A program made the position numbers and the translations under genes. 63,978 bases of DNA from Catajapyx aquilonaris (Eukaryota), in NCBI GenBank assembly GCA_000934665.2, contig KZ538488.1:1-63978 (forward strand). Direction: 5' to 3'. The notes beneath the pieces were generated by a model. That model ran no database searches. It saw only the letters and a list, made by a program, of their open reading frames with translations, and was not told the origin of the DNA. Of the stretch, positions 36,901 through 60,696 are shown piece after piece (the first letter of the stretch is position 1; every line of letters begins with the position of its first letter).

Positions 36901-39900
36901 TTAAATATTCTTGTACCCAACTTTCAAAGAAAATTATTTTGAGAGAAAATTACTTCATCAATATTTTTTTTGCTGAGGGATAAACTGCTTAATGTATGAA
37001 AATCAGGTGACAAAAATGGATCCTCCGTTCTCAGGACTGTGGCTGGTAACCGGATTTCATACGTCCCAGGAGGCCTCCTGCAAAAATCTCCGCATCTAAG
37101 TCTTATCGAACTCAAGGGGAATCCCATACGTCGTGTGGACTACAAGGCCTTCTGCCACCTTCCAAAGCTCAAGAAACTGTAAGTCATTCCCCTTTTTTTC
37201 AATTAGAAAAAAAAAATCATAGAAAAATATTTTTGTGTTAAATTTTACAATATTTCTCTCGTTTGAAAACTCTGAATATATGGGCTAAAGTACAAGTGTC
37301 CTGCATATAGGACATCAGGCAATATTTGGGTTAAGGTGTGCTATTTTGTATGAAGTCAGAATATTCATATCCTGAGCATTATTGCACCGTTCAATTCCCA
37401 AAGTTAGTTCCACAGATATAATAATCAGAAGTCGAGGGCAAAGTTTTGCGGATATGGCATGGGTCCAGGAATAAAATGCTGAGGCTAGAGAAATGTGTCC
37501 GGGATTTTCGAGCCCTGCTGGGAGATCGGAAAAGTTTTCGGTGAGGGTAGTACGGGGTAATGACTTGTCAACAAGGGAGCACTACGTCATAATATCGTTG
37601 CTGCTTGTGTATTCCGCCGACACACACAAAAGGGCCGAGAACTCCCCCCTAGAAATTGCCCGATTTATTAACCCTGTGTTTAATATTAGTGGTTCAAAAT
37701 TTGTGCCAAGCCTGTCCTTTAATTTGTCATCTTTCTTTTTACAAAAAGGACAGTAAACGAGCCCAATTTATCCGGGAGTGGACGCGATGGACAAATTTGA
37801 TCCGGTCCAAAAAGTTTGCTCGTAGAAAGCAATCTAATAAATTGTTTATTTCGATAAAGCGAGGGTTGACCACACTCCAAAAGAAGTTCCATGAACTTAA
37901 CGAAACAGCTTGTGCCAACGGTCCCCTAACACACCGAAAAAGTGAACTCGGGAGTGTTTGACCTTCCGTTAACCATTTTTTTTCTTCTTCTTCTTCTTTC
38001 CTATTTTTTTGTGTGTGGAAACCTTCCCAGAATTCTCTCGGAAGCAAGAGAGTTGAGGCAGTTTCCAGACTTGAATGGAACGAGCTCGCTGGAGATTCTG
38101 CGCATCGACCGATCCAGCTTAACCAACGTCCCCTCTTACTTGTGCCAGTTTTGCAAGAAGCTCAAGAGTCTGTAAGTGGGCCATGACATTTGTTATCCTA
38201 CAGTGGAAAATGCTAAATCTCTTTTTATAGTCGACCATTAAGTTACGCCCCTAGTTAAAGTTTTTTTTTTGCTTCCCCCCCCCCCCTTTTTTTTTGATCG
38301 ATTATCCATTCAGTGTGAAGGTGGCAGAGCAACAATGTATGAGATGTCGCGATTTATTTTGCCCGCGAGGTTGGTGGTATGCCAAGCTTGCGAAAGGTGG
38401 TGATGTGATTAATCTTGCAGTATCGACGGTTATTGCCCTTCGGCGAAGAAAAGGCCGCAGTAACAAGTTAGGTCCTAAAAATGCTCGGCTAGTCATGCCA
38501 GGTTAGCTAGTTCAGATGGAGGTCCACCAGAGGCAGCACATACCCTCTCTACATAATATTTAAAGAAGAAATAAATTGTCGCTCTATGTACTGTACAGTG
38601 CTGGACCTTAATTCCGTCATACTGCTGGAGACATTTTCCTACCTTTTCTTACTCCCACGGCTCACACTCTATCACTTCCATTTGCACATCAGAAAATGTC
38701 GCAAGCAGTATGACGCAATTAATGTCCCAACACTGCACGTTAATTTATTAATTTCAATTCGAGTTGTAAAAAAGACAAAATTCCGGTTAATTGTTGCTAG
38801 CCACTAATTCCTGTCGAATCGCCACTAATTTGTATGCAAATCTCTTCCAAAGTACTGACTCAAACATCCGTGTTTCAGAGATCTCAAATCCAACAAGCTG
38901 ACCGAGATGCCCAATCTGTCCAGTTGTCGAGACCTGCGCCTGCTGTAAGTAAATCATTACATTATAACAACTTCCAAGCTTTGGTTCCCGCGCATTTGGG
39001 TCCTAACAATATGCGGGCTGGCTTCCGGATTAGAATTAATTGGGGGTACCCACATTTGCAAGCTAATCTCGGGTTTGTTTTCCCCTTCACAGAGACCTGA
39101 GTCACAACCGCATCCAGAGTCTGGAAGGGACTCCATTCAACAGCCTGTCCCAACTTCAGGATCTGCTTATAGGACACAACCTCGTCAAGTACATTCCCCA
39201 AGACTCCTTCGTAGGCTTGACCAGACTTCAAGTGCTGTAAGTACCCACTAAAAATTCCGCAGAAGGAAGTTTAATTCAATGGCTGGTATCCTCTGGCTCC
39301 TTAAGGGACGTAAGCAGCAATGAGATCGTGGAAATTCATGAAGACGCCTTCCTGCCTTTGAAGCAACTGGAGGATCTGTAAGTACATCTTATCCATCTCA
39401 TACTTTGCTGGGGGAAAAAATCACATGCCATTTTCATATTGCGCACTCCCAAATTTTGCCCCATACAGTAACTCACAACTAGCTCCTTACAATCTGCAAG
39501 TTCTGCTTTAATGTTTAACGGTCTAAGTAAAAAAAAGGGCTGAGAGTGCAAGAAAATGGTAAGAGTCGGAATTATGTGGCAGACAAGGGTTCTTGCTCCT
39601 TCAGACGAGTCCTCTTGACTCCAATTCAACCCCTGAACCACATGAAAGGAGTTCTTTTCTGGCAACCCACTCGGCTAAAGCAGGGCGGACGTGGTGAGGA
39701 ACTTTTAGGCAGATTTCCAAAAAAAAGTGAAGAACGAGAAAAAAAGTAGCTCGCACCCTCTTTTTTCTTTGAAAAAAAAAGGTTTGAACATGACCTCAGA
39801 CATCGTATGTTGATCCGATTTTGATCTGGTTCAATTAAGGGTCAATCAGCCGTTACTCTTGTCCAATTTACAAAGTAATTTCAACGCTTTTATAACCTAT

Positions 39901-42900
39901 TCAAGTCCGAAGCAGCTGTCAATACGTTTCATTACATATATATACAGTACTGCATTGTGCGTTTATGACCCTGTTTATGTCTGGACTAACAGATTACCAA
40001 CACCGCAATTCCGAGTTCTTGGTACGGACCCAACACATTTACACAGGCTGTAAACCAGTCCAAAGTGTGTACTCAGCACTCAGCAGCACCTTGTCTTTTT
40101 TTTATTTTATCATGGTGTACACAACACCAACCCGGACAATGGACGTAAACAATTTGCTAATTTCATCTGAGCGAATATCCATCTTATTCCTGTCAGAAAT
40201 GGGTTTATATATAATTCTCACAGGATGTCACCACACCCTGTACCGCCCTCCCCTTCCAAAATTTAATCACGGGTCAAAACCCCAATCATGGCAACCCATT
40301 GTTTTGATACGCCAAGCCACTCATTTATCTCCGCATCTCTCCCGCTGGAACCCACGGCTCGAAATTGGTTCCAAGTCCCGAGTGGTTTTAACCCGACGAT
40401 TTGCTTTGTAATTCCATTTTCCCAACACCACTTTTTTTTTTTAAACCCATAGAAACGTGGGGTTCAACCTGTTTCCGGAGCTTCCGTCCCAAGGCCTGGA
40501 CAATCTTCTCCAGCTCAAGACATTCAACAATCCGCATCTTCGTGAGTTTCCAGGTCCGGACGACTTTCCTCGTGTTCAGAAGCTGGTATTGTCGTACGCG
40601 TACCATTGTTGCCAGTTTTTGTCTGTTGCTGAGGCTGTACCGGACCAACAACATGGCGAGAGGAGACTTGAAGATTCGGTCCTATTTCCCACTGGAGATT
40701 TCGACATCAACTTATGGAACATGAATGCAACGGATATCTGGCCCGAATTTCGTGAGTCTGCATTGCTATTTTGTTTATTGGTTTTTGTCTAATTATTTGG
40801 TTGCAGAAAACCTGACTTCAAAATTCGGCAAGATTGCTGAGGACCTTTGGGACAACTTTGGCTCAGACATTTCCTACCCAGCCAATCTTCCAGCAGTCGT
40901 CGAAGAGTATTTCGATTCGGCGAGACCTACGCCACATGGGGCTCAATGGCCCAAGGGACAGATCCAGTGCATACCTCAGCCAGGTACAAACTTTTGACAT
41001 ATATGCACACAACATACGAGTGACATTATTTCGTCTGTAGGTCCGTTCATGCCGTGTCAGGACCTGTTCGACTGGTGGACCTTACGATGCGGTGTATGGA
41101 TCGTGTTTCTTCTGGCCATGCTGGGCAACGGGACAGTGGTGTTCGTCCTGGTATTCTCCAGGAGCAAGATGGACGTCCCCAGATTCCTCGTCTGCAATTT
41201 GGCCATGGCTGACTTCTTCATGGGGATTTATCTGGGTCTGTATGTCCGACCCGGTTGCGAAAAAGCTTTTATCCTGTGAGTTATACACACTGGCAGACAT
41301 TGACGTGCAGGTTGCCTTGCACAGTTAGGATAAATTAAGTGAAAGAGTCTGCTATAAAGCGTGTCACCAGAAAATGTGGTGGTAGAGGGCGCAGGTGTAA
41401 CCATTTTTGCATAAGGAACTAGGGGTCGGAAACGCACCCTCACCGAGTTACGCCCCTTTCAAGTTTGCGGCAGGCAGTGTGCAAGAGGCGTGCGGCATGC
41501 GACGGAGTGACTCGGTGAGGGTGCGTTTCCGACCCCTAGTTCCTTATGCAAAAATGGTCACACCTGCGCCCTCTACCACCACCTTTTCTGGTGACACGCT
41601 TAGGATTAACACCCTGTACAGTTGAAGACCTTCTCACTTGAGGAATAATACTCCTGGCACTCTCTTTGTTGCTTATGTTGCCAGGAGCGATACTATCAGA
41701 TTGGACAAACATCCGACGGAGAGAATAAGCCTATTAGGAGAAATATGTTGATGTGGACCGGTTGACTGACAATGTCCGTGTTCTTCTTCAGGCTTCCTGG
41801 CTGTGGTGGACGCGTCGACCCTGGGCGAATTCCGCAAGTATGCCATCCCCTGGCAGATGTCGGCTGGATGCCAGATCGCGGGTTTTCTCGGGGTCCTGAG
41901 CTCCGAGCTGTCCGTGTATACCTTGGCCGTGATCACCCTTGAGAGGAACTACGCCATAACCCACGCCATGCACCTCAACAAGCGGCTGTCCCTCAAGCAC
42001 GCGGCGTACATCATGTCAATCGGTTGGCTCTTCGCTGGTTTCACCGCCCTCCTGCCTCTTCTGGGCATCTCGGACTACCGAAAGTTCGCGGTGTGCCTAC
42101 CATTCGAGATTGGGGACTCGCTCAGCCTGGGTTACGTGCTGTTCCTCATGTTCATCAACGGGGTGGCCTTCCTCATACTGATGGGCTGCTACCTCAAGAT
42201 GTACTGCGCCATCAGGGGCTCGCAGGCCTGGAACTCCAACGACTCCAGGATTGCAAAGAGGATGGCCCTGCTGGTCTTCACCGACTTCATCTGCTGGGCG
42301 CCCATCGCCTTCTTCTCGCTCACCTCCACATTCGGCCTGCACCTAATCTCTCTGGAGGAGGCCAAGGTCTTCACTGTCTTCATCCTGCCTCTGAACTCCT
42401 GTTGCAACCCATTCCTGTACGCCATCCTGACCAAGCAGTTCAAGAAGGACTGCGTGTTGATCTGCAAGGCCATCGAGGAATCCAGGGTCACCCGGGGGAT
42501 CGGCCGGTGTCGACACAGCTCCAACTTCAGCAACCAGAAGACTCCGGCCAACACCAACAGCCTCGTGGACAAGACCAACTCGTCCAACAAGGAAGGACCG
42601 CAACAATGCAGCTGCAACAAGAAGCACGACCTGACACCTTCAGGAGCGACGCCCGTCAGCAAGGTCCCCGCACGATGGTCCTGGAAGAACGTGACGAACT
42701 TCCTGTGCTTCAGACAGGAGGATCCGACCGAGGTGATGAACGAGTACGCCTACCAGATAGCCGAGATCCAACAGAAGCAGCACCAGAAGCACAAGCGGAA
42801 CTCGTCAGTGTCCAGCGAGAACTTCAGCTCGTCCAGATCCGACTCCTGGAGGCAGGCCAACTGCGCCAGCATCCCGCTCAAGCTTCTGGAGCACCGTCGT

Positions 42901-43947
42901 CGCAACTCCTGGACAGTCACCCGGAAGCCCTCGCAGGACTCCAACATGTCCAGCTCCAGGAACGACTCCTCCGCAACCACCGCCAGCACCAGCACGTGGC
43001 GGATGTCGCGCTCTAGTGTCTCCAGCGACGTCAGCAACAACAAGCCGCAACCGGCCGCAGCAGCAGTCATTGCCGCCAAGCAGCAACAACAACCAAACGG
43101 GCAGCAACCACTCCCAGCGCCCATTCTTCGGCAAGGGTCAGGCATCCTTAATCCTCCGAAGCCAGCAGCAGCACCGATCGTCACTCAGCCGAAACCGCGT
43201 GTGGTCGTCCCATTGCCCAGCAGCATCCTGACGTCTCCTAAAGCCGCGCCCAGACCGGTTGTCCCAACACTGGACGCATCGCCGCCTAAGATCGCAGCCG
43301 GCCGCGCGAAACCGCGTCTGATCCGGCAGTCCGCCATTCAGGAGGACAACTACATGCCAATAAAGTCGGTCTCATTCGAAGGCACCTCACCGCCAATGGG
43401 TCTGGTTCCTCCGCGTAAGAACTCGTGTCCTGTCCACGCAGCAGAGCGAATGGCCACCTTTTACAAGCAGCTGGACAGCGTCAGCGACACCGACACCGAC
43501 GACAGCGACGCCCAGTCCAGTCGTCCCCGCCATTCCAAGCTGGCAGTCGGAGGGTTCGTCCCCCGGAAGCTCAGCACCATTTCCTCCAAGAGTAGTATTA
43601 CCCGGGAGAGTTCCGGACACCTGAACCTCCTGGAGAGCCTGGACATTAACGCGGAAGGGGCGGTACCGAGGAGGTACTGTTCCTCCATGTCCAAAAGCCT
43701 CACCAACGTGTCGCACGTGTCGCCTCAGGCCGCGCCCAAATGCCCGTCGGACAACGTGCTGTCCGAGACGCGCAACAACGACGGCGGCGACACCACCGAC
43801 GACGACGACGTGTTCGTCGCGGCGAGGCAGTCGCGACGATACTCGCTTCAACCGAAGCCGTCCGAAGTGGTCGCGACCAGACGCGAGAGGATCCCTCTGA
43901 TATCCCCAAAGGCGTCCGGAGACACACCAAAACAACCCATGTTGTGA
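6797..43947 (+). CDS. rk: Type-B leucine-rich-repeat GPCR, bursicon receptor (rickets/LGR2) ortholog; join(6797..6975,31574..31645,32058..32126,32188..32259,32630..32773,33797..33868,34734..34805,35786..35854,37035..37178,38031..38171,38879..38944,39093..39236,39306..39377,40453..40751,40807..40983,41041..41235,41792..43947), 1380 aa
   Basis: Hand-spliced GT-AG model totals 4143 nt and stays open. Domains in order: signal peptide, LRRNT (CPSSCVC..C), about 17-18 LRRs, hinge YAYHCCQF and CIPQPGPFMPCQDLFDWWTLRCGVW, 7TM with ERNY, FTDFICWAP and NSCCNPFLY, then rickets-type tail motifs (SSVSSENFSSSRSDSWR, SSSRNDSSATTASTSTWR, KPRLIRQ). Confidence 0.93.
29864..30002. repeat. 33-bp minisatellite, about 4.2 copies; each unit has ATTGG (reverse CCAAT) plus TGACGTCA (CRE)
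   Basis: Unit ATTGGCTGGAGCGATGTGACGTCATAGGCCGTG starts at 29864, 29897, 29930 and 29963, with a partial copy at 29996. Confidence 0.95.
31574..31645 (+). CDS. rk: rk exon 2 (1 LRR, 72 nt)
   Basis: tttcag|G..CT|gtgag; DLGYNNITEIPRDAFFGFTLLEEL. Confidence 0.92.
32058..32126 (+). CDS. rk: rk exon 3 (1 LRR, 69 nt)
   Basis: ctccag|G..CT|gtaag; NLAGNSIHFVDPSAFMDIPLRML. Confidence 0.92.
32188..32259 (+). CDS. rk: rk exon 4 (1 LRR, 72 nt)
   Basis: ttgcag|G..CT|gtaag; SLEKNNLAEIPWRAIRVLSNLHTL. Confidence 0.92.
32630..32773 (+). CDS. rk: rk exon 5 (2 LRRs, 144 nt)
   Basis: gcaaag|G..TT|gtaag; HLASNNLFELGPEVFDSLSTLKQLRLDGNYFQHVPSQALANLVHLEAL. Confidence 0.9.
33797..33868 (+). CDS. rk: rk exon 6 (1 LRR, 72 nt)
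   Basis: tcgcag|A..CT|gtacgt; NLASNKISVVGPEAFRNLTNLVIL. Confidence 0.92.
34734..34805 (+). CDS. rk: rk exon 7 (1 LRR, 72 nt)
   Basis: ttttag|G..TT|gtgag; VLERNNLQTIHEDGFVGLTSLKVL. Confidence 0.92.
35786..35854 (+). CDS. rk: rk exon 8 (1 LRR, 69 nt)
   Basis: tgtcag|G..CT|gtgag; EINDNRLEEMPVAITKLPSLEEL. Confidence 0.92.
37035..37178 (+). CDS. rk: rk exon 9 (2 LRRs, 144 nt)
   Basis: tctcag|G..CT|gtaag; TVAGNRISYVPGGLLQKSPHLSLIELKGNPIRRVDYKAFCHLPKLKKL. Confidence 0.92.
38031..38171 (+). CDS. rk: rk exon 10 (2 LRRs, 141 nt)
   Basis: tcccag|A..CT|gtaag; ILSEARELRQFPDLNGTSSLEILRIDRSSLTNVPSYLCQFCKKLKSL (FPDLNGT is typical of type-B LGRs). Confidence 0.93.
38879..38944 (+). CDS. rk: rk exon 11 (1 LRR, 66 nt)
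   Basis: tttcag|A..CT|gtaag; DLKSNKLTEMPNLSSCRDLRLL. Confidence 0.92.
39093..39236 (+). CDS. rk: rk exon 12 (2 LRRs, 144 nt)
   Basis: tcacag|A..CT|gtaag; DLSHNRIQSLEGTPFNSLSQLQDLLIGHNLVKYIPQDSFVGLTRLQVL. Confidence 0.93.
39306..39377 (+). CDS. rk: rk exon 13 (1 LRR, 72 nt)
   Basis: cttaag|G..CT|gtaag; DVSSNEIVEIHEDAFLPLKQLEDL. Confidence 0.92.
40453..40751 (+). CDS. rk: rk exon 14 (last LRRs and hinge start)
   Basis: ccatag|A..C|gtgagt; NVGFNLFPELPSQGL...LSYAYHCCQF...DIWPEF. Confidence 0.93.
40807..40983 (+). CDS. rk: rk exon 15 (hinge)
   Basis: ttgcag|AA..G|gtacaa; NLTSKFGKIAEDLWDNFGSD...GQIQCIPQP. Confidence 0.92.
41041..41235 (+). CDS. rk: rk exon 16 (hinge end, TM1-TM2)
   Basis: ctgtag|GT..G|gtctgt; GPFMPCQDLFDWWTLRCGVWIVFLLAMLGNGTV...CNLAMADFFMGIYL. 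Confidence 0.92.
41357..41601. mobile_element. Foldback MITE-like element in rk intron 16 (95-bp arms, 55-bp spacer)
   Basis: 41357..41451 is a near-perfect reverse complement of 41507..41601. Flanks are TAA/TTA-like (PIF/Harbinger-like), but the TSD is imperfect. Confidence 0.8.
41792..43947 (+). CDS. rk: rk exon 17 (end of TM2 to TM7 plus long intracellular tail)
   Basis: cttcag|GC gives GFLAVVDASTLGEF..., the frame of the 714-aa ORF 41803..43947; stop TGA 43945-43947. Confidence 0.95.
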
Positions 43948-45076: not shown

Positions 45077-45082
45077 TTTATT
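45077..45082 (-). terminator. Polyadenylation signal AATAAA for the RAD51AP1-like transcript
   Basis: TTTATT on the plus strand, about 78 nt past the stop at 45160. Confidence 0.55.
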
Positions 45083-45159: not shown

Positions 45160-45278
45160 TCAACAGATGTTTGGTTTTAATGATGGATGCAGTGGTTTAA
45201 CTCGTGCATTGCGAGACAGGCCCAGTCTGATCTTGCCAACTGACTTGTGTCTCTCTCTGCCTGCGTCTAACCCGCGAC
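45160..45278 (-). CDS. RAD51AP1: RAD51AP1-like terminal exon with the RAD51-interacting motif
   Basis: actttcag|GT gives (S)RGLDAGRERHKSVGKIRLGLSRNARVKPLHPSLKPNIC*; close to the recalled human RAD51AP1 C-terminus LRLGLSRLARVKPLHP. Confidence 0.8.
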
Positions 45279-45600
45279 CTGAAAGTAATCATTGTGCAAT
45301 TATAGCATGTGTACCGATACTCCGTGGAGATGATTTGAGCATTCTTGTGAAAACACATGCACCAAATTCCAAAATCCCATTACACCCTGCCTAACTGCAC
45401 AGTAACAATCTGATTCCTCCCTTTAAAAATTACCTTGTTTGATTTTAATTATTAGCTTTTATCCCACTCATCTCCAGATTCTCTGCCTCCCGTAACTCCA
45501 TACTGATTTCCTCTTAATTTACTTCAATACTGTTCAAGACTCCATGATAATGTCTGACCAATTTCATCCTTATGATAAAAGTGGAAGTACGGATACTTAC

Positions 45601-45990
45601 TTTGAGGTGCTGGCACTTTTTTAGGTGAGTCCTCTAACTTCTTTATACCTTCTAGTTCACTCTTGTCGCACCTTACAGGCACACCATTGTTGGGAATACA
45701 TTTTTCCTGCTGTAAACTATTTTCTGATATGACATGTGTTTTGGCAACTGGTGGACTTCTCGCTACTCTTTTAGGTGTTCTGATCCGAGGCGGGGTTTTG
45801 TCTTTTCCTCTCGGTGTTGTGACTCTTCTTGGCTTTTCAGTAATGATGGGGGACTTTTCATCAGCTTTCACTTTTGCCCTCGCCTTCGGAGACTCATAGT
45901 CGCTGTCGTCTGAGGCCCCTGAATCCACCTCATATACCTCTGAATCCACCTCACTACTTTCCTCAGACTCATACGGTTTAAAAGGAGAAG
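45601..45990 (-). CDS. RAD51AP1: RAD51AP1-like internal exon (390 nt): acidic Ser/Asp/Glu tract, then Lys/Arg/Pro-rich region with SP/TP sites
   Basis: Strong acceptor ttattttttttcag|CT and donor A|gtaagt, phase 1-1, open; SPFKPYESEESSEVDSEVYEVDSGASDDSDYESPKARAKVK...DSPKKVPAPQ. Confidence 0.75.
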
Positions 45991-46135
45991 CTGAAAAAAA
46001 ATAAGAAGGCTATAAGTTTATGTTGGAATAAACGCAGAAATTCAGATATGTATGATATCACTCAAAAGGATATACCAGATTTTATCTCACATGCTAATAT
46101 GTGACTAATCATTGGCCAATGCTTTGTACAGTGGT

Positions 46136-46274
46136 GGACATTAATCGCGTCATACTGCTAGCGACGTTTTCCGAAGCAGCAGAAGAACAAATCTTCCTTG
46201 CACAGCTTGCACTATCCATTGCTTCGATTAGTTCTTCTGCCGCTTCGGAAAATGTCGCTAGCGATTAAAGTCCC
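46136..46274. mobile_element. Small degenerate palindromic MITE (possibly PIF/Harbinger-like)
   Basis: ggacattaatcgc..ctagcgacgttttccgaagcagcagaagaacaaatc is inverted against gattagttcttctgccgcttcggaaaatgtcgctagcgattaaagtccc; right flank is TTA. Confidence 0.65.
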
Positions 46275-46637
46275 TTAGTACAGTCCCGAGCATAAAGTTG
46301 GAGACGGCAAGCCTCACCTTCGGCAAGGTGCTCTTCCAATCTCAGCTATTACGGTATCAAATGTACTGTTATAAATACATGAACACTGCGCCTGAAGCAG
46401 CTAACTTGGTCCAAAAAGTGTCCATTAATTTGAGTCGGATAAAGGAAGATCAGAGAAGGCCCGCAGTGTCTCCAAATTTATGCTCGTGGCTGTACATCCT
46501 GTTAAATTGAAGCCAACTAATACAAAGTAAATATATGACTCTCTGGGTAATAATATATTCCCTTCAAACCATGACGCTTTACAATGCAAATAATTCAACA
46601 TTGCATTTTTTTTTCCATTGGTGTTGCTTTCAGATAT

Positions 46638-47253
46638 CGTTGTTAGGCATCGGAAATCCTCTATGTGGGTGAAGGACAACTTTTCAGGAGGGACAAAAAA
46701 CCAATTAAAACCTTTGAAGTGGCATGTGTGTGATCCAGATTTTTTTATTAAGGCATGTTTCTCATAATGCATGTATTGCACTAAGAATAAACAGAATTCA
46801 TATGAAATTCCAGGAAATAATACGCATTTCTTAGTGATTATCACACATAGCGGATTTTAACAAGTCACATGCCCCACATAGCTGAATTTTGTTCATGACA
46901 GATAAATAATTATAATTATAAAATATTATTATTTCAATTATTAACTCATAGTTCAGTTGGACATTAAAATAATTTTTATCATTACTGTGCTAAGAGAAAG
47001 GAACTTGTCATCTTCTATACACTTCTATACAAATCCGCTATGTGTAACACGCACCACATAGCTGAATTTCTTTGAACTAATTGCTCCACATAGCGTATAT
47101 GGTCAGATAATGGTCCTTTTTTCCTCATTTCTGGCTGTTGCCACACTTGGCGGGTTTTCACAGCAGATGCACATGGCGGTTTTCGTCACATTCCACTATA
47201 AACCTCATTTCAGCCGAAGTCTCCACATAGCGGATTTCCGATGCCTAACGACG
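46638..47253. mobile_element. Non-autonomous DNA transposon, 616 bp, 31-bp TIRs, ATAT TSD (Sola-like)
   Basis: CGTTGTTAGGCATCGGAAATCCTCTATGTGG..CCACATAGCGGATTTCCGATGCCTAACGACG (2 mismatches); ATAT at 46634-46637 and 47254-47257; internal CCACATAGC(G/T)GA repeats. Confidence 0.85.
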
Positions 47254-47488
47254 ATATGTGGTCTCTAATGTAATCCCTTTATGAACTCAATGAAAATGTG
47301 TTTTTTTTTTAAAATTTTAAGACGTCATAACTTTTGCAAATATGGGCCTCCTCACGAAATATTTCATTTTTGGGTATCATATATTGTCCTGTATTAGCAT
47401 GTTAAATTTCATCAAGATCCGTCATTATCACCCTGTGACCTTCCCTTGTAAGTAAAATAAAAAGAATGCAAAATGACATGACTCTCAC

Positions 47489-47526
47489 CATTGATAACAT
47501 TGATATCAATGGAGCTAAGATTTACA
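47489..47526 (-). CDS. Candidate 38-nt linker exon (VNLSSIDINVIN), phase 2 in and phase 1 out
   Basis: atctttttgctcag|T..G|gtgaga; it exactly bridges the BORCS8 phase-2 donor at 48904 and the phase-1 acceptor at 45990. Confidence 0.4.
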
Positions 47527-48327
47527 CTGAGCAAAAAGATCTGGATGGCTGATTGAAGGTTTGCATTTATTTATTGGAAAAGCTAAGGCACTAAGGCATG
47601 AGGATGTGCTGTCACAGTAAAAAAATATGATGCCTGTCTGTCATAAGTAGCTCCAACAGTTTCAGTAGATTATGTCTCTGCTCCAACACTCTTGTTTGTA
47701 CAGTACAGCATGCGGAGATTATGATGTCTACTATTGCATATTTGTATTGGACCAGAGACAGCATTGAAATTCCAGTGCAGTAATTGAAGACCTTGGGGGA
47801 AGAAAGATCAAGGTCCACATTTTGGCAAAAAGTAGTTACATATCTCAGAAGATACTTTCCCTATAGTGTAGAATATGATGGTTTGGTCATGGTTGTGGAG
47901 TAATGATCATAGGTCACAATGGTAGGCCCCGAAAGTGGGATTTACAATGGAACCTTACGGGCCTTCGAAATTTAAAATAGGATTATCTCTGTTTCACCTC
48001 AGGTGGACCTCGATGGTTTTTTCTCCCGATGTCTTCAATTATTAAAGCCATGCACATTGCAATATCATCTTTTTGGCAGGAATAATGGAGACATTATGTC
48101 ATGGTTGGCATCAATGATTTCACTGGAAATCTGTGGTCCAATGCTAATGTAAGCTGGAGAATGTGAAAATTATTATGGCTGTTGGAATAGTGACATCACT
48201 TGAATTCAAGTAAAGTGGCTGCAGCCACTCATGATAAATGTCTTCCATCTTTTTGGCAACACTAGTACATGGCTCTCTGAAGGATTACAAATGCATGCCA
48301 TGAAAGTGGATTTTTCCGATAATACTT

Positions 48328-48340
48328 TCAACTTCTCCAT
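48328..48340 (-). CDS. BORCS8: Candidate short terminal coding exon of BORCS8 (R-WRS-stop)
   Basis: Good acceptor cctttttccag|A gives a stop after 3 codons in the BORCS8 frame; minus-strand AATAAATAAA at 47566-47575 could end its 3' UTR. Confidence 0.35.
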
Positions 48341-48903
48341 CTGGAAAAAGGTTTTGTTTTGGAATAGGCCCACATGTTATTTGGTAAGGGTGAACCTCTT
48401 CATTATTATAGAAATTGTGTAATGTGTACTGCTTTCCATGAAATGAGAATACTCATACTTGACAAACAATCAGGAAAATAGGCGAAATGAGTCCAGGATT
48501 TGTGCAGAGAAGTTTCATTCATAAAAGTGAGCAGTCATTATGAATTTATTATATACGCTATACACAGGATTGTAAAAGGAGGAACATTTGCACATTTAAA
48601 AAGTTTAATTCAATTACTCCATCTTCCTCCCTTTACTCTTGATTGAGCAGGAAAACACTGTAGATTAATAAAAATGGTTTTTAAGAACTTGTTAAAAATA
48701 AAACTAATAAAAACCTATTAAATAAATGAATAAATAAATAAATACAGGAATATACCTGAATCAGGGAAACAACTCAACTAGAAATGGGGTCATCAACTGG
48801 ACTGGTTGTATCAAGGGATAGTCTAAGCAAAAAAATAAAAATAAAACAATAATGAATAAAAAACAGATTGTGTCCCATATATGTCGATGGAAACAGTGCA
48901 TAC

Positions 48904-49011
48904 CGCCTTGTCTCTTCACACTGAAGCTGCTGCTTATGGAATATGGCACTCTTCAGCATTTCCAGAATATTGCTTAATGTGTCACTGGAGTTTTGCATGG
49001 AGTGCACTGCC
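48904..49011 (-). CDS. BORCS8: BORCS8 exon (108 nt)
   Basis: ttacag|G..CG|gtatgc; AVHSMQNSSDTLSNILEMLKSAIFHKQQLQCEETR. Confidence 0.88.
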
Positions 49012-50532
49012 CTGTAACAAGTACCAACACATGAATGAGTACCAACACATGAATGAGAGATTGTGAACTGTATAGACACTGCTATGTCTATACAGGGTGT
49101 TTCAGAGTCACGGGTCAAGCGCGCGCGAGGGGATGGGGAAAAATCGTAGGTGGCGACAGCCCCGGTCGGTTTTATAAAAGAATTAGAAATATGGCAGTAA
49201 TCAATTGATTTATTACGGCCGTACGGCATGACGTCACATCCTTTCTGTATTCGAACTGACCGGCGCGGACTGGCAGATTCAGTGGTTTGAACCTGGTTGA
49301 ACGGGTTTTTAGCCTTGCGGGTTGCACTGAAAAAGGGCTCTCATGCCACACCGGCAGGGTACTGTACAACGTAGCGTACTACAGCTGTACAGTGGTGTGT
49401 TCAGTACCCTGCCAGTGTAGCATGAGAGCCCTTTTTCAGTGCAACCCGCAAGGCTAAAAACCCGTTCAACCAGGTTCAAACCACTGAATCTGCCAGTCCA
49501 CGCCGGTCAATTCGAATGCAGAAAGGATGTGACTTCACGCATTACGGCCGTAATAAATAAATTGATTACTGCCGTATTTCTAATTGTTTTATAAAACTGA
49601 TCGGGGTTGTCGCCACCTACGATTTTTCCCCACCCCCTCGTGTGCGCTTGACCTGTGTCTCTGAAACACCCTGTACAGTTCACAATCTCTCATCCAAAAC
49701 CCTAGATTTTTCAGAATTTGTAATTTTCCGATTTCAGAATGGTACAGGTATGTACTGTGCATACTGTCAAACGGGGTGGGATTGTGTCAGCTCATTTTTT
49801 TCGACAACATGCATGGCACCAAAAGCAAGCTATGGAACACAGATGACCTTCATGGAAAACTTTAGGTTGTCAGAGATTTTTATTTTCAGAATATCTGGAA
49901 TATTCATACAATATAATAGAGGTCCCGGCTGGTTTGCCAGCGATGGTACTCTCTCACTCGAGTGGTCCTCGGACCTGACTCGCATTTCTTGGTTGGACGG
50001 GGTTCTTGGGAAAACATCCCAACCCCGTCCCTGGGTTGGACCCGGCATTGCAGCTTAGCCGGGGCCAGCCCTCCTCTCCCCCACCCTTCTAACCCACCCC
50101 CCTACCTTGCAATCCCACACCTTCCTCTCCTAACCCCAGCTGCCACGGCTCGACTCAGAAAGAGCCGTACAAGCTGGGTAACCCTTCCAACCAACCAACA
50201 TTTTCAGAATTTCCGATAACATACTGTCAATTGTAGTCTTATCACTTACCCAATAGCATATTGAGTGTCATAACAGCGTCCTTGTAGCTGTTGCTGCAGC
50301 TGAGAAATTTCCCTCCTTTTCTCCACCATTGGTGGCAATGACTTACGTACATGTTCCTCCATGCGGAAGAAGGCTAGAGCGGGATCATTAGCTACATTGC
50401 TAATGTTCTCTGACAGCCTTCCTATGGCTGCAATATTGTACTGTTAGTAATTGTGTGCAGCCATGCATAATCAAATGTGCTCTTGCCTTTCTTTGTCACT
50501 GATGTCAACTCTGGGTCACGCTGCAGTGCCAT
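48904..50532 (-). CDS. BORCS8: BLOC-1-related complex subunit 8 (BORCS8/MEF2BNB homolog); complement(join(48904..49011,50250..50427,50487..50532)); 3' end unresolved
   Basis: Spliced translation: MALQRDPELTSVTKKAIGRLSENISNVANDPALAFFRMEEHVRKSLPPMVEKRREISQLQQQLQGRCYDTQYAIGAVHSMQNSSDTLSNILEMLKSAIFHKQQLQCEETRR. This matches the recalled BORCS8 signature (ANEPS.A.YR.QEHVR.SLP ... QG..YD.EY...AVK ... LK.AI..KQQL). Phases 1 and 2 are compatible. Confidence 0.9.
49020..49057. repeat. 18-bp tandem duplication AGTACCAACACATGAATG x2
   Basis: Directly visible, just upstream (minus strand) of the BORCS8 acceptor at 49012. Confidence 0.9.
49093..49673. mobile_element. Tc1/mariner-type foldback MITE, 581 bp, TA TSD, inside a BORCS8 intron
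   Basis: TA|CAGGGTGTTTCAGAG...CTCTGAAACACCCTG|TA; arms 49093..49368 and 49398..49673 (276 bp each). Confidence 0.92.
50250..50427 (-). CDS. BORCS8: BORCS8 exon (178 nt)
   Basis: ttgcag|CC..GG|gtaagt; IGRLSENISNVANDPALAFFRMEEHVRKSLPP...YDTQYAI. Confidence 0.92.
50487..50532 (-). CDS. BORCS8: BORCS8 first recognisable coding exon (MALQRDPELTSVTKK), followed by a GC donor
   Basis: gctATGg start; AAG|GCAAGA donor; 59-nt intron ending ttgcag; restores the frame of the next exon. Confidence 0.8.
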
Positions 50533-51135
50533 AGCTGCAGACCTTGGTGCTCCACCTGCCAGTAGTGTTTCACATCATTGTCATGCAAATAACAGAATCT
50601 TACGGTATGATTTTTAAAAAGTTTTCTTGTAACTGAATCAGTCCCATTCACAAGGTTGATGACAAGCCATTTTGCATGTAGCAAACTAGGATAACATCCC
50701 ATGTTGGCCTAAAATTGAGTCAAATTGGACTTCCAGTACCGTACATATTCATACTAGAGAATAAATTTTATCATGACAAATTATGTAACTTTGTGATAAG
50801 TTGGATATTGTACCAAAGTTGGTACAAGCATAATATAGGCCTACTATTTTCTGGAATTGTCAGCATTCAGTACTTTGGAGGAATGCAAAAGGAAAATAAT
50901 TGACTACAGTTACTGAAAATGGGCAGTATGAAAATTCAGTGTGCCTTGAATTATCTATTTCTGTAAAGGAAGTTTTTATGTTCTCACAAATTCACTAGAA
51001 CAAAAAAATGATTCCATAATATCCATATCACACCAGAATTTCATACATGGTATAAGCCTACTTGTGATATGCGCCTCAAAAGGATGGGGTTTCTTAAAAC
51101 ACCCTGATCAGCAGCAATGTGAACAAATGCTAATA

Positions 51136-51238
51136 CAGTAAAACATGTCCCATAGCAGAATCACATGGAACCCTAAAACATTTCCACAACGGACAAGTTT
51201 CCGCTATACCCAGGGTCCGTAATGGACAAATTTCACTG
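51136..51238. mobile_element. Tiny degenerate pogo/Tigger-like MITE with TA TSD
   Basis: TA|CAGTAAAACATGTCC...GGACAAATTTCACTG|TA. Confidence 0.55.
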
Positions 51239-54200
51239 TAAAATTAGAGAAGGAAGAAAAGCGCATATCATCTGATGAAAAGAACATGCAAAGAAAATGC
51301 AATTTCTGACCCTTCATTGCAGATGGCATTTTTATCCCCCCCAAAAATGACTACTGGCATTTAACCCACGTTTCTGCTGGTTATGGTAGCCGAAAAAAAA
51401 TAATGTTCTCTTGAGACACACAAAACGAGCTACAAGATTCAGGTCAATTTGTCACCAACCAACCTGCTCGACGCATGTCCTCTACATGCACCATTTGCCC
51501 GTCCCTGTACTGTACTCTATAATACCCTTTATACAGTACCAATACCAAATAAACCCTTGCTTCACCGTAATCTGATGCACTAGTGGCTCTGGTTCAACCG
51601 TCCCTACTTTCAATAACCTTCCCGTATTTCCCGCACTGTCACATTCCCCTATTCAAACACTCATTCCTCATTCCAGAATCCCCTGAATCCGAACCACTCT
51701 GCTGAACCGTGTCACCACCTCGTAGCTAGAAATGGCAATGGCATGAGAGCCAAGAAAGTGCTGCCCCGAAGCGGATTTTTGGTGGGCCAGTTCAGCCCGG
51801 CAGACGTAGCCCAGGCTCAGGGTAGTGTGGTTCATTTTATATTGGGCTCGAGCAAGCTGACCAACGTTTGACCTGGCGCGACCCCTCAGCATGACATGAC
51901 ATGAGGTGAGGGTGGCTGCAGTCAGAGCTGGTGTGGGTCCGGTAGAGGTCATCACCGCGTCGCAGGTGACCACCCATGTGCTTGGTCAGTGCTTGAGCAG
52001 CTGGGTCCGTGGCCACCTAACTACACCGCTATGCCACTTCTCATCTGGTGAGCTTGTCAACTGTCAACTGTTTGCTCTTGGCAGACGACGTCAGATAGTG
52101 GCAGATATGCATGTGGCTGAGGTTGTGCTGTTATGTGCTCACTGTCTTTGAGGGGTTTGGTAATTGTTGACCTGTTGAATCATACAATTTGGAGGGTTGA
52201 ACACTGGCAGTTTGTATGAATGGGACTACAGGTGTCATGCAGTATTTTCAAATTTAGTGGGAGGATTTGTCCAGTTGTGCTGGGAACATGGGTGGTAATG
52301 GTGTAAAAGTGGGTTTGACATTTATGGATCTTGTTTTGTTTCTTGTTTTTATTGTGTAGTACCAGTAGTACCTCCTCAGCTGTAGTAGTGTCATTCTTGC
52401 ATATTTTGTTTGTGGCTTTGCTTTTCTTGGGTGCATAACAAATAATGTGCAACTGTCACATGTTGGTAATTAACTAGTGACACGCACAATAAATTTGATA
52501 AGCACATTTGTGTCGGCTGTTTATTTTCACGCTGTCATAATATGTTAGTACCTGTTAGTATTAAAGGTCAATATGGTCACCTGCATAATGTTGATATATT
52601 GTATGAATATGTACTACAATCTGATTCTAGATGCATCTATTTTTAACTGTTGTCATTCATATGACTTTTAGCTAGTAAATCCAAGCTTAAATTTTTTAAG
52701 TATGTTTAATAATGAAGAGCATGTATGTAATTGAGACCAAAAATAGTATTGTAATCAGGGGACCATGGCGTTATCAATATGTCCAATGGCAGCCGCCACA
52801 CTCGTTTTATTTGTGTATTTCCCCAGTGGGCATTGAATGCAGCCTGGAAAAGGTACATAAGAATTGAAAACTCACAAAAGGTTATTGTGGGATGAGAAGC
52901 TTTGGGTGCCTCTCCACAGGACAGTAGCCTAACATAGATGGTCTAGCGTTGAAGTGCTGACACTACAATGAATAGAAATTCACTCATATACACACAAAAA
53001 TGTGAGTCACCCATGTGTGTCTCCGGCAGTGATACAATGCCTGTGTTGCATGGTTTATGACACGATTCGTTTGGAAAAGAGGGAAAGAGGTTGTAGGCAA
53101 AAGTAATTATGTTCATAAACCATAGAGAACCTTGCTAGCAGTAATTCCGGATAGCTGACAGACTGGCTGCTACTAATTGCTATTGTAATTCAGGTGCTGT
53201 TATATTGCCCCTTTCCCCCTACATTATGCAGCAGGTGTATTAATTTCACACTGATATTAGCTGAGTAATATATACTGAAGTGATTATCTCTCATTCTCAT
53301 GACTATGGACTATGAAGGTGTAAAATATTTTGGATATATTTATTTTATTTATTTATTTATGATACCCCGTTCGAGGGCTGAGCCCTTTTTGGGGGACTTT
53401 TGGGTATATTTTACTGTAGGATTTCTCCACATAATATTTTAAAGATAAATTAATCTAATTCCAAAATCAACAACTGTTTGAATACAAAATTATTAAGTGT
53501 TTCCATACTTTATTAAACTAGCAGTGCCAACACCAATGACTATAAATGCCATGAAATGAAATTGCCCAAATTGTTTGACCTTCCTACTGCCAAAGTTGCA
53601 GCCTGTGGGACCCAAAATAGCCAGCGTGATTAAATGTACCCCATTGTTTATTGCCATCAGGTAATGTGCCTGTCAAGATAGCAGTAGAATAGCAGATTGT
53701 GTTTGCAGTTTGCAGCAGGAGGTTTGCTATATATTCTATGATGGGGTGGGAGAGTGCACTGCTTGGCAAATAAAACAAGGAGATGGAAACCATAAAGGTA
53801 GTTTTCTTCATGAATTACCAAGCAGTGGCATAGAGTTCTTTATAAAAAAATCAAGGTCCTGCAGCTGAAATGTTGTGGCGGATTTGTTTAATCAATTTTG
53901 GCTCTCAGTCAGATGAGCTTTGAGGCCATAATTACATGTGATAGCAGCTTAAGTAGTACTATTCTGAAAATTTACATATTATGATCTAACAATACTGCCC
54001 CTGAGTTGAATGAATTACGTTGAAGATGAATTATTGAATAGCATATGCCTGATTTGGGACACAAGAGTAGTTGTAGCATAATTATGATGTAGGCAATATT
54101 TTTCCATGTGAAAATTGCACATCGGTATTGCAGAAACAGGAGCTTCCATTAGTGGAACAAACAATAGCCATTTAGAGAATAATATGCCTGTCATACAGAA

Positions 54201-56554
54201 TAGTCTATACCTATAGTAGTCGAGTAAGCAGTTGCCTACCTGTACATAGCTCGTATATTTTATCACCCCAATTTTGTTGCCCAATACCATTTTAATGACT
54301 GAGGACAGTGAGGAGAGACCCTTGCCAAAGTGGTTCACTGGCCAGTATTTCAAAATCGGAATTAATGGCGCCATAATATGAATCTTATCGCCAACTAGGG
54401 CGGTCACCATTGGTTTACACTATCACATTGCTATAGAAACACATGCCTTTTTTTGCAAGCAACTTGTGTGAATCCCGCGTTTCATATTATAAAAGGACAT
54501 TTACATATGCTTAGTTGCATGATTCACCTTGAGATGTCGTACCGGTCCTATGGGAGACGACCCTATTTTATATTCATCCCTTCCGAAGTTGGGCAACTTG
54601 GGCAAATCAACTATTACAACATTCGTCGATCTATTACACACGGCAGCTGCTGGCGTAATGAGACGAGGTTGAGTCGGACAACAGCCGCCGAATTGTTGTC
54701 GGGAAAGGATGTGAGACGGGCCCATCAAATGCGATAGTGTTTCCTTAGAACGCTGTTCAGGCTTAGAGCTGTGGCCTAAACGAGATGAATAGGCGCCACT
54801 GGCTCGTAGAATGACCCTCTCTGGCAAGGTCTCTCGGTGGTGTCACCATAGATGCTCTTTCATTACCGGCCTTCCAACATTGGATACCAAAGTGCTTCTA
54901 GATAGCCTAGGTCAGGGGGGCGTACCCTGGAAGGACTGAGCTATTATGCAGGGTGAGGCAGAAGTGTTGTGCGAGGCTTCATAGGCGTGGGGTTACGTTT
55001 TGTGTGTGTCAAACATATACAGTGGTTGTGTTGAATGTACAGATTATGATATAAGCATATACATTCCGCGAAACTCTTTCGTAATAGACAAGTTTCTGCT
55101 ATATCGGACCACTCGATTATAGGACTAATTACAGACGCATCAGTGGGTGATCCCTTTAGAAACGGAGTCACTCCCGCCACCTCTTCGCCCACGGGAGCGA
55201 TTTTTCACGCCCGCGCTCCGCTCGGACCCCTCATTTGTCGAACCGCTCCCGGTTTGGCGACTATGTAACGCCTTCATGCAGTATTAATTCTGCAATTTAC
55301 GCAGTGTTTTCCTTGCTCTGAGACCTAAAATGCTGCCCGTATCCGCATTAGATAAGAACACTGCTGCGAGTAGTTTCTGCTACATACAGAGATAACGCAT
55401 TAGAATTGAAATTGATCGTAAATGGAAAACGAAATATTGAACCGGCATCCATCGTTATAAGCGCAGAATTCCACCCCAAGCGGAACGGAATATAGCAATA
55501 TTTTCCCGCCACCGAACGATTGCGTCACGGACCGGCGTTATTAAGCCCACTTTGGTATTACCATATCGTGGGCAGGTACAGGGACTGAGGCAGCTCTCCG
55601 GGAAACTGCGTGACGTCATGTGTTAGATTACCACCTTGCTAATTTCCCTGCACCTTGTCGGCCTGCTATCGGCGACCGATGGCGTCACGGTATCCAGGCC
55701 GCTGAGGGCGATGCCCCACCTTGTTTGGAGCGGGTCTGACCCAGCCGCCGATTGTTGTCGCATTTCTGATGATAACATTCCATTGATTTGCTTTAAATTC
55801 TGGGATGGAGACTGCGACAGTGCTGCTTTAATACTTGAGTCTTGGACGTATGCAATCATGATGTTACTATATACTATGTTTTATCGGGGAAAGAATGCCA
55901 TAAAGCTTATCTGTAACCTCGATCTGATCTCAGAATTCCACGCGGGTTTGTTTCTGTTGTCTGGAGATACTTAGATATGAGTGGGATGATTATGCACATG
56001 AGTGCCTCGCAGCTTGACAAATGATCTACAGGTTAGATGTAACGTGACCGAAGTACGATTATAGTCAGACACTGCTGGTAGTACTGCATGTTTGTACAGT
56101 GGAAGCTGGGTGTTGATTGTATTTTTGACACACCGTACTTAGCACCTGGTCACACTGTACGTTCTGAAGCGAAAGTAGCATTTTCAAATAGCGTCGGTTG
56201 GTGACCAGTTACGCTCATTGTACAGTGTGCGTCATCTGTAGTAGTGAGACGTGTTAAAAAAATGTGCCCATAGCAACAGCAGACATGGAGTGCGGTGACT
56301 TCCATCGAGGTCGATGTGTGAGATGTTTCTTGGAGTTACTAATATGGTTCCCACCCCCTGTTCTCCTCTACCCCGACTCCCATGGGCGCCAGCTCCCAGC
56401 TCCAGACAATAGTTGTCACAACCCAATTTTTGCGGACCCCTCTGAGTGAGATCCGAGCCTGTGATCGGATCCGGCAGGTACATCTGACATGGCGACAAAA
56501 GGAAGTATTGGTGAGCCGGTAGTATTTACCAAGTCCTTTTGTCCCGTCAGTAGA

Positions 56555-56661
56555 GGGGGGGGGGGGAGAGAGAGAGAGAGAGAGAGAGAGAATAATGGGA
56601 GGAATACTCTTTCAGGACTGATATCCGGAATCGTGTATTATTATTGTTGTTATTATTATTA

Positions 56662-56720
<59 letters not shown>
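56555..56720. repeat. Compound simple repeats: G run, (GA)n 56566..56591, (TAT)n 56636..56720
   Basis: Directly visible. Confidence 0.95.
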
Positions 56721-56721
<1 letters not shown>

Positions 56722-59260: not shown

Positions 59261-59261
59261 A

Positions 59262-59333
<72 letters not shown>
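59262..59333. repeat. (TAT)n microsatellite abutting the transposon end
   Basis: Directly visible. Confidence 0.95.

Positions 59334-59334
<1 letters not shown>

Positions 59335-60640: not shown

Positions 60641-60642
<2 letters not shown>

Positions 60643-60690
<48 letters not shown>
60643..60690. repeat. (AG)24 microsatellite
   Basis: Directly visible. Confidence 0.95.

Positions 60691-60696
<6 letters not shown>

What the first reader, a model, noticed from the sequence alone, without database searches (positions are those of the whole stretch)
45160..50532. Possible BORCS8 / RAD51AP1-like fused or shared-exon locus
Seen: BORCS8 exons are followed within 3 kb, on the same strand, by exons encoding an acidic/basic disordered region that ends in RLGLSRNARVKPLHP. 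That downstream frame contains no Met, and the gap is partly MITEs with no obvious promoter. Two in-frame routes exist. (a) BORCS8 exons + 38-nt exon 47489..47526 + 45601..45990 + 45160..45278 give 879 nt, a 292-aa BORCS8-RAD51AP1-like chimera. (b) The phase-1 GC donor at 50487 splices directly to the phase-1 acceptor at 45990, so two proteins share one first exon. Known: BORCS8 is a lysosome-positioning BORC subunit, RAD51AP1 is a nuclear recombination mediator, and human BORCS8 forms a read-through with MEF2B. Inference: one transcription unit may encode both a lysosomal and a DNA-repair function; I know of no described case of this pairing.
Basis: partly seen in the sequence, partly recalled or inferred. 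Interest (0 to 1): 0.8.

Follow-up and report, generated by a model that had tools for sequence, protein, structure and literature searches.

The report
BORCS8 beside a RAD51-binding-motif gene
A lysosome-positioning gene (BORCS8) sits just upstream of the last two exons of a RAD51-binding-motif gene whose start is missing, but nothing tested here shows that the two are joined into one protein.

Summary
The exons exist as described. On the minus strand, three BORCS8 exons (Pfam PF10167, E 1.3e-22 and 4.8e-07) are followed 2.9 kb downstream by a 390-nt acidic/basic exon. A short last exon then carries a RAD51-interacting motif (PF15696, E 3.5e-10; 14 of 15 residues identical to human RAD51AP1). 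The downstream frame has no Met. Both proposed routes (879 nt/292 aa and 555 nt/184 aa) are open. The routes are arithmetic, not evidence. 63 of 300 random 2.9-kb segments of this window also hold a stop-free, phase-matched connector exon with splice sites as good as the 38-nt exon's. Route (b) needs only a 1-in-3 phase match at the ancestral BORCS8 intron-1 position. Five ATG-initiated first-exon candidates that feed the 45990 acceptor lie in the gap. BORCS8 relatives share the intron phases and end in their own fourth exon. That tail motif is not found here, so the BORCS8 3' end is unresolved. No RNA run was listed and no genome is held, so transcripts and synteny could not be tested. Most likely these are two tandem genes, with the downstream gene's 5' exon(s) unrecognised. 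A conjoined transcript remains possible (about 0.15).

The parts
50487..50532 (-). BORCS8 coding exon 1 (ATG at 50532; phase-1 GC donor AAG|GCAAGA; 59-nt intron with TACTAAC branch-like site)
   Evidence: The junction to exon 2 matches the transcript-like relative L002. The intron has the same phase as in L001.
50250..50427 (-). BORCS8 exon 2
   Evidence: Pfam PF10167, E 1.3e-22, 80.3 bits. 69% identity to P0001 and 63-64% to L001/L002.
48904..49011 (-). BORCS8 exon 3 (phase-2 donor CG|GTATGC)
   Evidence: Pfam PF10167, E 4.8e-07. The donor has the same phase as in L001.
48774..48822 (-). Candidate BORCS8 last exon, unverified: an 81-nt in-frame, stop-free intron, then 16 codons and TGA
   Evidence: acceptor score 1.96. 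Not supported statistically: 2068 of 20000 shuffles were stop-free, and there is no significant similarity to relatives' tails.
48545..48550 (-). AATAAA, a possible BORCS8 poly(A) signal
   Evidence: consensus match only
47489..47526 (-). 38-nt candidate exon of route (a); status unknown
   Evidence: Donor ATG|GTGAGA scores 4.56, above the 99th percentile (4.11) of the 140 GT sites in the gap. The acceptor scores 1.85, at the 95th percentile of the 154 AG sites. A connector this good occurs by chance in 63 of 300 segments. There is no in-frame Met upstream in its ORF.
46091..46112 (-). Candidate independent first coding exon (ATG, 7 codons + 1 nt, donor CAT|GTGAGA, 100-nt intron to 45990); unverified
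   Evidence: It has the best donor (3.4) of the 5 phase-1 ATG candidates. The Kozak context is weak.
45601..45990 (-). Internal exon of the RAD51-interacting-motif gene: an acidic block, then a K/R- and S/T-P-rich block. Phase-1 acceptor, the strongest in the gap.
   Evidence: It lies in a 161-codon stop-free stretch. The window has 11 ORFs of at least 161 aa, against 0-2 in each of 20 shuffles. No Pfam family matched, no relative was found among 1.84 billion representatives, and there was no match to human RAD51AP1 in the PDB.
45160..45278 (-). Last exon: RAD51-interacting motif and stop (TGA 45160-45162)
   Evidence: Pfam PF15696, E 3.5e-10, 40.3 bits. The PDB search matched the C-terminus of RAD51-associated protein 1 chains 9qnc_B and 9qn8_B, with 14 of 15 motif residues identical.
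45077..45082 (-). AATAAA about 80 nt after the stop; probable 3' end of the downstream gene
   Evidence: consensus match only
46631..47260 (.). MITE-like element with 38-nt terminal inverted repeats (92%)
46125..46262 (.). Small palindromic MITE-like element, with related copies at 38592-38639 and 38689-38738
49088..49678 (.). Large palindromic MITE-like element (281-nt arms, 92%) inside BORCS8 intron 2

Best explanation
These are two separate genes in tandem on the minus strand. Upstream is a four-exon BORCS8 whose last short exon and poly(A) site lie within a few hundred bases of exon 3; the best guess is 48774-48822 with AATAAA at 48550. Downstream is a gene for a disordered, nuclear-type protein that ends in the RAD51-interacting motif. 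Its last two exons (45601-45990 and 45160-45278) are clear. Its short, fast-evolving 5' coding exon(s) lie unrecognised in the 2.9-kb gap; one candidate is the ATG exon 46091-46112. The downstream product would act as RAD51AP1's C-terminal half does. A K/R-rich segment would bind DNA, and the terminal motif would dock on RAD51. Shown here: the exons, frames, motif and splice signals. Inferred: the gene boundaries, the 5' exon, the BORCS8 terminus and all functions.
For: Family assignment rests on Pfam PF10167 for BORCS8 exons 2 and 3 and PF15696 for the last exon. The motif is 14 of 15 identical to human RAD51AP1. In both RAD51AP1 and RAD51AP2 a short last exon encodes the whole RAD51-interacting region (PMC1636435, passages read), as it does here. 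BORCS8 relatives (P0001 and L001-L003) end in their own tail or fourth exon, and L001 shares intron phases 1, 2, 2 with the window. None of the 4 loci has a RAD51 motif in the DNA held. The named Atlas clusters nearest BORCS8 exon 2 carry PF10167 alone. The in-frame routes are at chance level: 63 of 300 at x38-grade sites and 250 of 300 at loose thresholds, and 4 of 33 in the gap itself. Five ATG-first-exon candidates with a phase-1 donor lie in the gap. AATAAA signals follow the candidate BORCS8 end at 48550 and the downstream stop at 45082. The layout of the downstream product is an acidic block (12 D/E in 33 residues), then a basic block (17 K/R in 57), with 8 S/T-P sites in all, then the motif. 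This parallels the human C-terminal fragment that holds the bipartite DNA-binding domain and the RAD51-interaction domain (PMC12439919, passages read).
Against: No Met-bearing 5' exon could be identified by homology. No N-terminal RAD51AP1-type motif or acidic-run exon was found on the minus strand from 45990 to 63978. The five ATG candidates are themselves what chance would give. The conserved BORCS8 tail motif (S-x-Y-K-R-L/F-S) is absent from the window, and the proposed BORCS8 fourth exon has no statistical support. The 38-nt exon's donor scores above the 99th percentile of GT sites in the gap, and it can only be coding if fed from BORCS8 exon 3. There is no RNA evidence either way.
Confidence: 0.55

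Rival explanations
1. This is a conjoined or read-through locus. Some transcripts that start at the BORCS8 promoter skip the BORCS8 poly(A) site and splice into 45990. They would do so either through the 38-nt exon, giving a 292-aa BORCS8-RAD51-motif chimera, or directly from exon 1, giving a 184-aa protein that shares only the first 15 residues with BORCS8.
For: Both routes are open. The downstream frame has no Met. The 45990 acceptor is the strongest in the gap, and the 38-nt exon's donor scores above the 99th percentile of GT sites there. No ATG exon with a phase-2 donor lies upstream of the 38-nt exon. The BORCS8 tail motif of relatives is missing. A BORCS8-MEF2B read-through gene name is in use in human literature (search listing only). 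The RAD51-binding last exon is already known on two otherwise unrelated proteins (PMC1636435).
Against: In-frame connectors are expected by chance, and the route (b) phase match has a one-in-three prior. A K/R-rich, nuclear-type tail on a BORC subunit has no precedent in the papers found. Relatives' BORCS8 ends in its own exon. AATAAA signals lie at 48550 and at 47575/47571, before the 38-nt exon.
Confidence: 0.15
2. The 5' exons of the RAD51-motif gene lie upstream of BORCS8 or beyond the window end. BORCS8 would then be nested, on the same strand, inside a long intron.
For: No convincing 5' exon was found in the gap. Strong minus-strand donors exist at 54239, 55719, 58670, 60980 and 63459, some preceded by short Met-initiated open frames.
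Against: None of those frames resembles a RAD51AP1 N-terminus. No Pfam family matched any ORF of at least 70 aa between 50533 and 63978. From general knowledge, same-strand nesting is the rarer arrangement.
Confidence: 0.12
3. Exons 45601-45990 and 45160-45278 are a stranded 3' fragment of a RAD51-motif gene, a partial duplicate or relic. It is not translated, and an intact copy lies elsewhere in the genome.
For: The frame has no start codon. MITE-like elements flank the upstream side. No relatives of the 390-nt exon were found.
Against: Both exons are intact, with good splice sites, a stop and an AATAAA. A 161-codon open stretch is rare in shuffles: 0-2 ORFs of that length in each of 20 shuffles. 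The motif is nearly perfect.
Confidence: 0.1

Closest known systems
RAD51AP1 (RAD51-associated protein 1), vertebrates
   Same: The C-terminal RAD51-interacting motif is 14 of 15 identical to the human chain and matches PF15696. It is encoded entirely by a short last exon, as reported in PMC1636435. It is preceded by a disordered acidic-then-basic segment with S/T-P sites, like the human C-terminal fragment that holds the bipartite DNA-binding domain (PMC12439919).
   Different: No detectable sequence similarity exists outside the motif. No N-terminal region was found, neither the N-terminal DNA-binding stretch nor the part shared with NUCKS1. The recognisable coding part is only 168 aa and lacks a start codon.
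RAD51AP2
   Same: It shares the RAD51-interacting last exon and nothing else with RAD51AP1. This shows that the motif exon occurs on unrelated N-terminal bodies (PMC1636435).
   Different: RAD51AP2 has one very long first exon (1083 aa in human) followed by two short exons. No such exon is present here.
BORCS8 (MEF2BNB), BORC subunit 8
   Same: PF10167 matches over profile positions 14-105 of 112. Exon-intron phases match relative L001. Identity to relatives is 63-69% in exon 2.
   Different: The C-terminal tail motif shared by P0001 and L001-L003 is not found in the window. The exon-1 donor is GC here and GT in L001.
Human BORCS8-MEF2B read-through locus
   Same: BORCS8 lies directly upstream of, and on the same strand as, a nuclear-protein gene. 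The read-through gene name is in use (search listing). That it yields joint transcripts is recalled, not read here.
   Different: The downstream partner is different, and no transcript evidence exists for this locus.

Membership tests
BORCS8 (PF10167) | Match to the family profile above the curated cut-off | tested here: met
   Exon 2 scores 80.3 bits and exon 3 scores 30.2 bits, against a cut-off of 25.
BORCS8 (PF10167) | Gene structure shared with relatives (intron positions and phases) | tested here: met
   Phases are 1, 2, 2 in both the window and L001.
BORCS8 (PF10167) | C-terminal tail exon with the motif seen in P0001 and L001-L003 | tested here: not met
   A regex search and tblastn found no such exon on the minus strand downstream of 48904. 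The tail is variable between relatives, so this is not a family-defining failure.
RAD51AP1 | C-terminal RAD51-interacting motif | tested here: met
   PF15696 scores 40.3 bits against a cut-off of 25. 14 of 15 residues are identical to human RAD51AP1.
RAD51AP1 | Motif encoded wholly by a short last exon | tested here: met
   The exon 45160-45278 is 119 nt. The criterion comes from PMC1636435.
RAD51AP1 | Sequence similarity to RAD51AP1 outside the motif, including the region shared with NUCKS1 | tested here: not met
   The 390-nt exon gave no RAD51AP1 chain at E up to 10 in the PDB, although a 364-residue chain is present there. It gave 0 hits among 1.84 billion representatives.
RAD51AP1 | N-terminal nucleic-acid-binding region (human residues 30-49, PMC12439919) | tested here: inconclusive
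   No 5' exon was identified. It may exist but be unrecognisable.
RAD51AP1 | Binding to RAD51 and stimulation of D-loop formation | not testable with these tools
   Needs biochemistry.
RAD51AP2 | [quoted passage not shown] | tested here: not met
   No long minus-strand ORF lies upstream.
Conjoined / read-through gene | Transcripts that carry exons of both genes | not testable with these tools
   No RNA holder was listed and no genome is held.

The most novel reading that the evidence does not exclude
In this lineage BORCS8 has lost its ancestral tail exon. At least one regular isoform would splice from BORCS8 exon 3 (or exon 1) into the exons of a RAD51-interacting-motif gene, so one promoter would yield both a BORC subunit and a RAD51-docking protein. 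This would be a third independent N-terminal body for the mobile RAD51-binding last exon, after RAD51AP1 and RAD51AP2.
Probability: 0.15. Interest if true: 0.6.

Novelty: new member of a known kind. Interest (0 to 1): 0.3.

Why it matters
As it stands this is an annotation problem. A RAD51-interacting-motif gene in a non-vertebrate-looking genome lacks a recognisable 5' end, and it lies next to BORCS8. RAD51AP2 and NUCKS1 are described as vertebrate-specific in the papers seen (titles and abstracts). A clear PF15696 last exon on a body with no other similarity to RAD51AP1 therefore suggests that the RAD51-docking exon is older and more portable than its two known carriers. If transcripts did join it to BORCS8, that would be a new carrier and an odd link between a lysosome-positioning complex and recombination. 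Nothing here shows that.

Tried and rejected
- Whole genome: none is held, so no search for a second PF15696 copy was possible.
- Word-indexed protein searches: the 390-nt exon with 'longer' lengths gave none of 339 candidates. The last-exon ORF with 'longer' lengths gave none of 43 candidates; a 15-residue motif cannot reach significance against 5.8 billion sequences.
- Exhaustive HMMER search with the 390-nt exon gave 0 hits.
- ESM Atlas: the last exon gave no usable hit. BORCS8 exon 2 gave only BORCS8-only clusters.
- Earlier findings of this scan: nothing.
- Rfam over the window: 0 matches.
- Pfam over 223 ORFs of at least 70 aa (93, 130): apart from the BORCS8 exon-3 ORF, already known, only a rhodopsin-type GPCR on the plus strand and sub-threshold noise.
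- Motif searches for an N-terminal RAD51AP1-like exon or an acidic-run exon upstream of 45990 found nothing convincing. The patterns were recalled, not taken from a tool.
- Homology between the 390-nt exon and relatives' BORCS8 tails: 24 of 2000 shuffles reached the score for P0001, but 1704 of 2000 did for L001 and 696 of 2000 for L002. Rejected as compositional.
- Support for a BORCS8 fourth exon at 48774-48822 from the stop-free stretch: 2068 of 20000 shuffles were also stop-free, so it is not significant.
Not pursued.
- CpG observed/expected as a promoter mark: elevated only over MITE-like elements and at 46001-46400, and low at the BORCS8 start itself, so uninformative.
- A SUMO-interacting-type hydrophobic core in the 38-nt exon's peptide was considered as a parallel to the RAD51AP1-UAF1 contact. 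It rests on recall and a short pattern that is common by chance, so it was left as a lead (listing only).


Full report
**What is in the sequence**

The window is eukaryotic and animal-like. It has short GT/GC-AG introns and MITE-like palindromes, and CpG is generally depleted. A rhodopsin-type GPCR lies on the plus strand.

- Exon 50487-50532 starts with ATG and ends in a GC donor (AAG|GCAAGA). A 59-nt intron follows, with a TACTAAC branch-like site.
- Exons 50250-50427 and 48904-49011 match Pfam BORCS8 (PF10167) at E 1.3e-22 and 4.8e-07. Together they cover profile positions 14-105 of 112.
- 2913 nt further on, behind the strongest acceptor of the whole gap, lies exon 45601-45990. It has an acidic block (12 D/E in 33 residues) and then a basic block (17 K/R in 57 residues). 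The two downstream exons together carry eight S/T-P sites.
- After a 322-nt intron comes exon 45160-45278. It matches Pfam RAD51_interact (PF15696, E 3.5e-10) and ends in TGA, with an AATAAA about 80 nt later.

A search of PDB sequences aligned that last exon to the C-terminus of RAD51-associated protein 1 chains. 14 of 15 residues are identical across the motif. The 168-residue downstream frame has no Met. Route (a) is 879 nt and 292 aa, and route (b) is 555 nt and 184 aa. Both are open, exactly as stated. MITE-like elements lie at 46125-46262 and 46631-47260 in the gap, and at 49088-49678 in BORCS8 intron 2.

**Is the joining more than chance?**

No. I scored all GT and AG sites in the gap with a rough position matrix. 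Its numbers are my own approximation, so they are useful only for ranking.
- The 38-nt exon has a good donor (4.56; the 99th percentile of the 140 GT sites is 4.11) and a fair acceptor (1.85, at the 95th percentile of the 154 AG sites).
- At top-10% thresholds the gap holds 33 candidate internal exons. Four of them are stop-free and carry phase 2 in and phase 1 out. At strict thresholds the figure is 1 of 10.
- As a null I took 300 random 2913-nt segments of the same window, on either strand. 63 held at least one connector with sites as good as the 38-nt exon's. 139 did at the strict thresholds and 250 at the loose ones.

Route (b) needs only that the phase of BORCS8 intron 1 equals the phase of the 45990 acceptor. 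That phase-1 position is the ancestral BORCS8 intron site, also seen in relative L001 with a GT donor. The match is therefore a one-in-three coincidence.

**Alternatives inside the gap**

Five ATG-initiated open frames end in a phase-1 donor that could feed 45990. The one with the best donor is 46091-46112 (seven codons plus one base, CAT|GTGAGA, 100-nt intron). Another, at 48200-48248, has a strong Kozak context but a weak donor. They show only that the lack of an obvious start is weak evidence.

No ATG frame with a usable phase-2 donor lies between 47527 and 48903. If the 38-nt exon is coding at all, it must be fed from BORCS8 exon 3.

**What relatives say**

- One protein relative of exon 2 was found: P0001 (138 aa, 69% identity, PF10167 only). 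It continues past the exon-3 equivalent into a 53-residue tail.
- A metagenome scan gave 4 loci with BORCS8 (37-64% identity, best segment, to exon 2; 63-64% for L001 and L002, and 37% for L003 only because its match spans an intron).
- L001, L003 and L004 are genomic and have introns. L002 is transcript-like.
- L001 shares the window's intron phases (1, 2, 2). It has its own fourth exon 394 nt after exon 3, which encodes a tail with the motif S-M-Y-K-R-F-S. Versions of this motif occur in P0001, L002 and L003.
- None of the four loci shows a RAD51 motif. However, they hold at most about 1.2 kb past exon 3, so linkage is untested.
- That tail motif is not found anywhere on the minus strand downstream of 48904 in the window. 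The 3' end of this BORCS8 is therefore unresolved.

A candidate last exon lies at 48774-48822. It follows an 81-nt in-frame, stop-free intron and has ATTAAA and AATAAA 165-225 nt downstream. It has no statistical support: 2068 of 20000 shuffles of the stretch are also stop-free, and its similarity to relatives' tails is at shuffle level.

The 390-nt exon gave the best raw alignment to P0001's tail (24 of 2000 shuffles reached it). It gave nothing against the L001 or L002 tails (1704 and 696 of 2000). I take this as a composition effect.

**What the downstream gene is**

Only the last exon ties it to a known family.
- The 390-nt exon has no Pfam match.
- It has no relative in the word-indexed search (none of 339 candidates).
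- It has none among 1.84 billion representatives searched exhaustively.
- It does not match the 364-residue RAD51AP1 chain in the PDB at E up to 10.

Kovalenko et al. 2006 (PMC1636435, passages read) report that in RAD51AP1 and RAD51AP2 a short last exon encodes the entire RAD51-interacting region, and that the two proteins share nothing else. The present gene fits that pattern: the same portable last exon on a different, disordered body. Its layout is acidic, then K/R-rich with S/T-P sites, then the motif. This parallels the human C-terminal fragment that contains the bipartite DNA-binding domain and the RAD51-interaction domain (PMC12439919, passages read). That parallel is inference from composition.

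I file the gene as a RAD51-interacting-motif gene that probably works like the C-terminal half of RAD51AP1. I do not file it as a proven RAD51AP1 orthologue.

**What could not be done**

- No RNA holder was listed for the locus, and the single search was then spent. No junction could be tested.
- No genome is held for the window. A second PF15696 copy and synteny could not be examined.
- Literature: papers holding both RAD51AP1 and BORCS8 (5 papers) or MEF2BNB (1 paper) are gene lists from human or bovine expression studies, judged from titles and abstracts. I found no description of this pairing in those two searches.
- BORCS8-MEF2B appears as a gene name in 3 listed papers (listing only). 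That it is a read-through locus is recalled.

**Verdict**

Its key inference is not supported beyond chance, and it cannot be tested with the data reachable here. My estimates are:

| Explanation | Probability |
|---|---|
| Two tandem genes, with an unrecognised 5' exon of the downstream gene | about 0.55 |
| Conjoined or shared-exon transcription | about 0.15 |
| 5' exons upstream of BORCS8 or outside the window | about 0.12 |
| A stranded 3' gene fragment | about 0.10 |

The remainder is unassigned. Interest is modest unless transcripts prove the join.

Noticed in passing
window 40998-43944 (+): A rhodopsin-family GPCR. ORF 41770-43944 (725 aa) matches 7tm_1 at E 2.1e-26 over its first 217 residues. 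A possible upstream exon at 40998-41276 matches the start of the same profile. The long C-terminal part lies in a 59% G+C stretch, far above the window's roughly 40%. The gene is convergent with the RAD51-motif gene.
   Followed up: partly
window 49088-49678: A near-perfect palindrome (281-nt arms, 92% complementary, 29-nt loop) inside BORCS8 intron 2. It is MITE-like, and its CpG observed/expected ratio is about 1, against 0.1-0.6 nearby.
   Followed up: partly
window 46125-46262 and 38592-38738: Two copies of a small palindromic element (85-86% identity over about 50 nt). One lies just upstream of the candidate ATG exon 46091-46112.
   Followed up: no
window 50428-50486: BORCS8 intron 1 is only 59 nt and has a GC donor and a TACTAAC branch-like site. 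The relative L001 has a GT donor and an intron of about 570 nt at the same phase-1 position.
   Followed up: partly
L002 560-700: The transcript-like metagenome contig has an in-frame stop right after the exon-3 equivalent, while the conserved tail continues in another frame. This could be a frameshift error, a retained piece or an alternative splice form of BORCS8 in that organism.
   Followed up: no
window 46317: The strongest GT donor in the gap (AAG|GTGAGG, score 7.47) has no Met-containing open frame upstream in any phase. It may be chance, or the donor of a non-coding or internal exon.
   Followed up: partly
window 6209 and 24493: Single N bases in the assembly.
   Followed up: no
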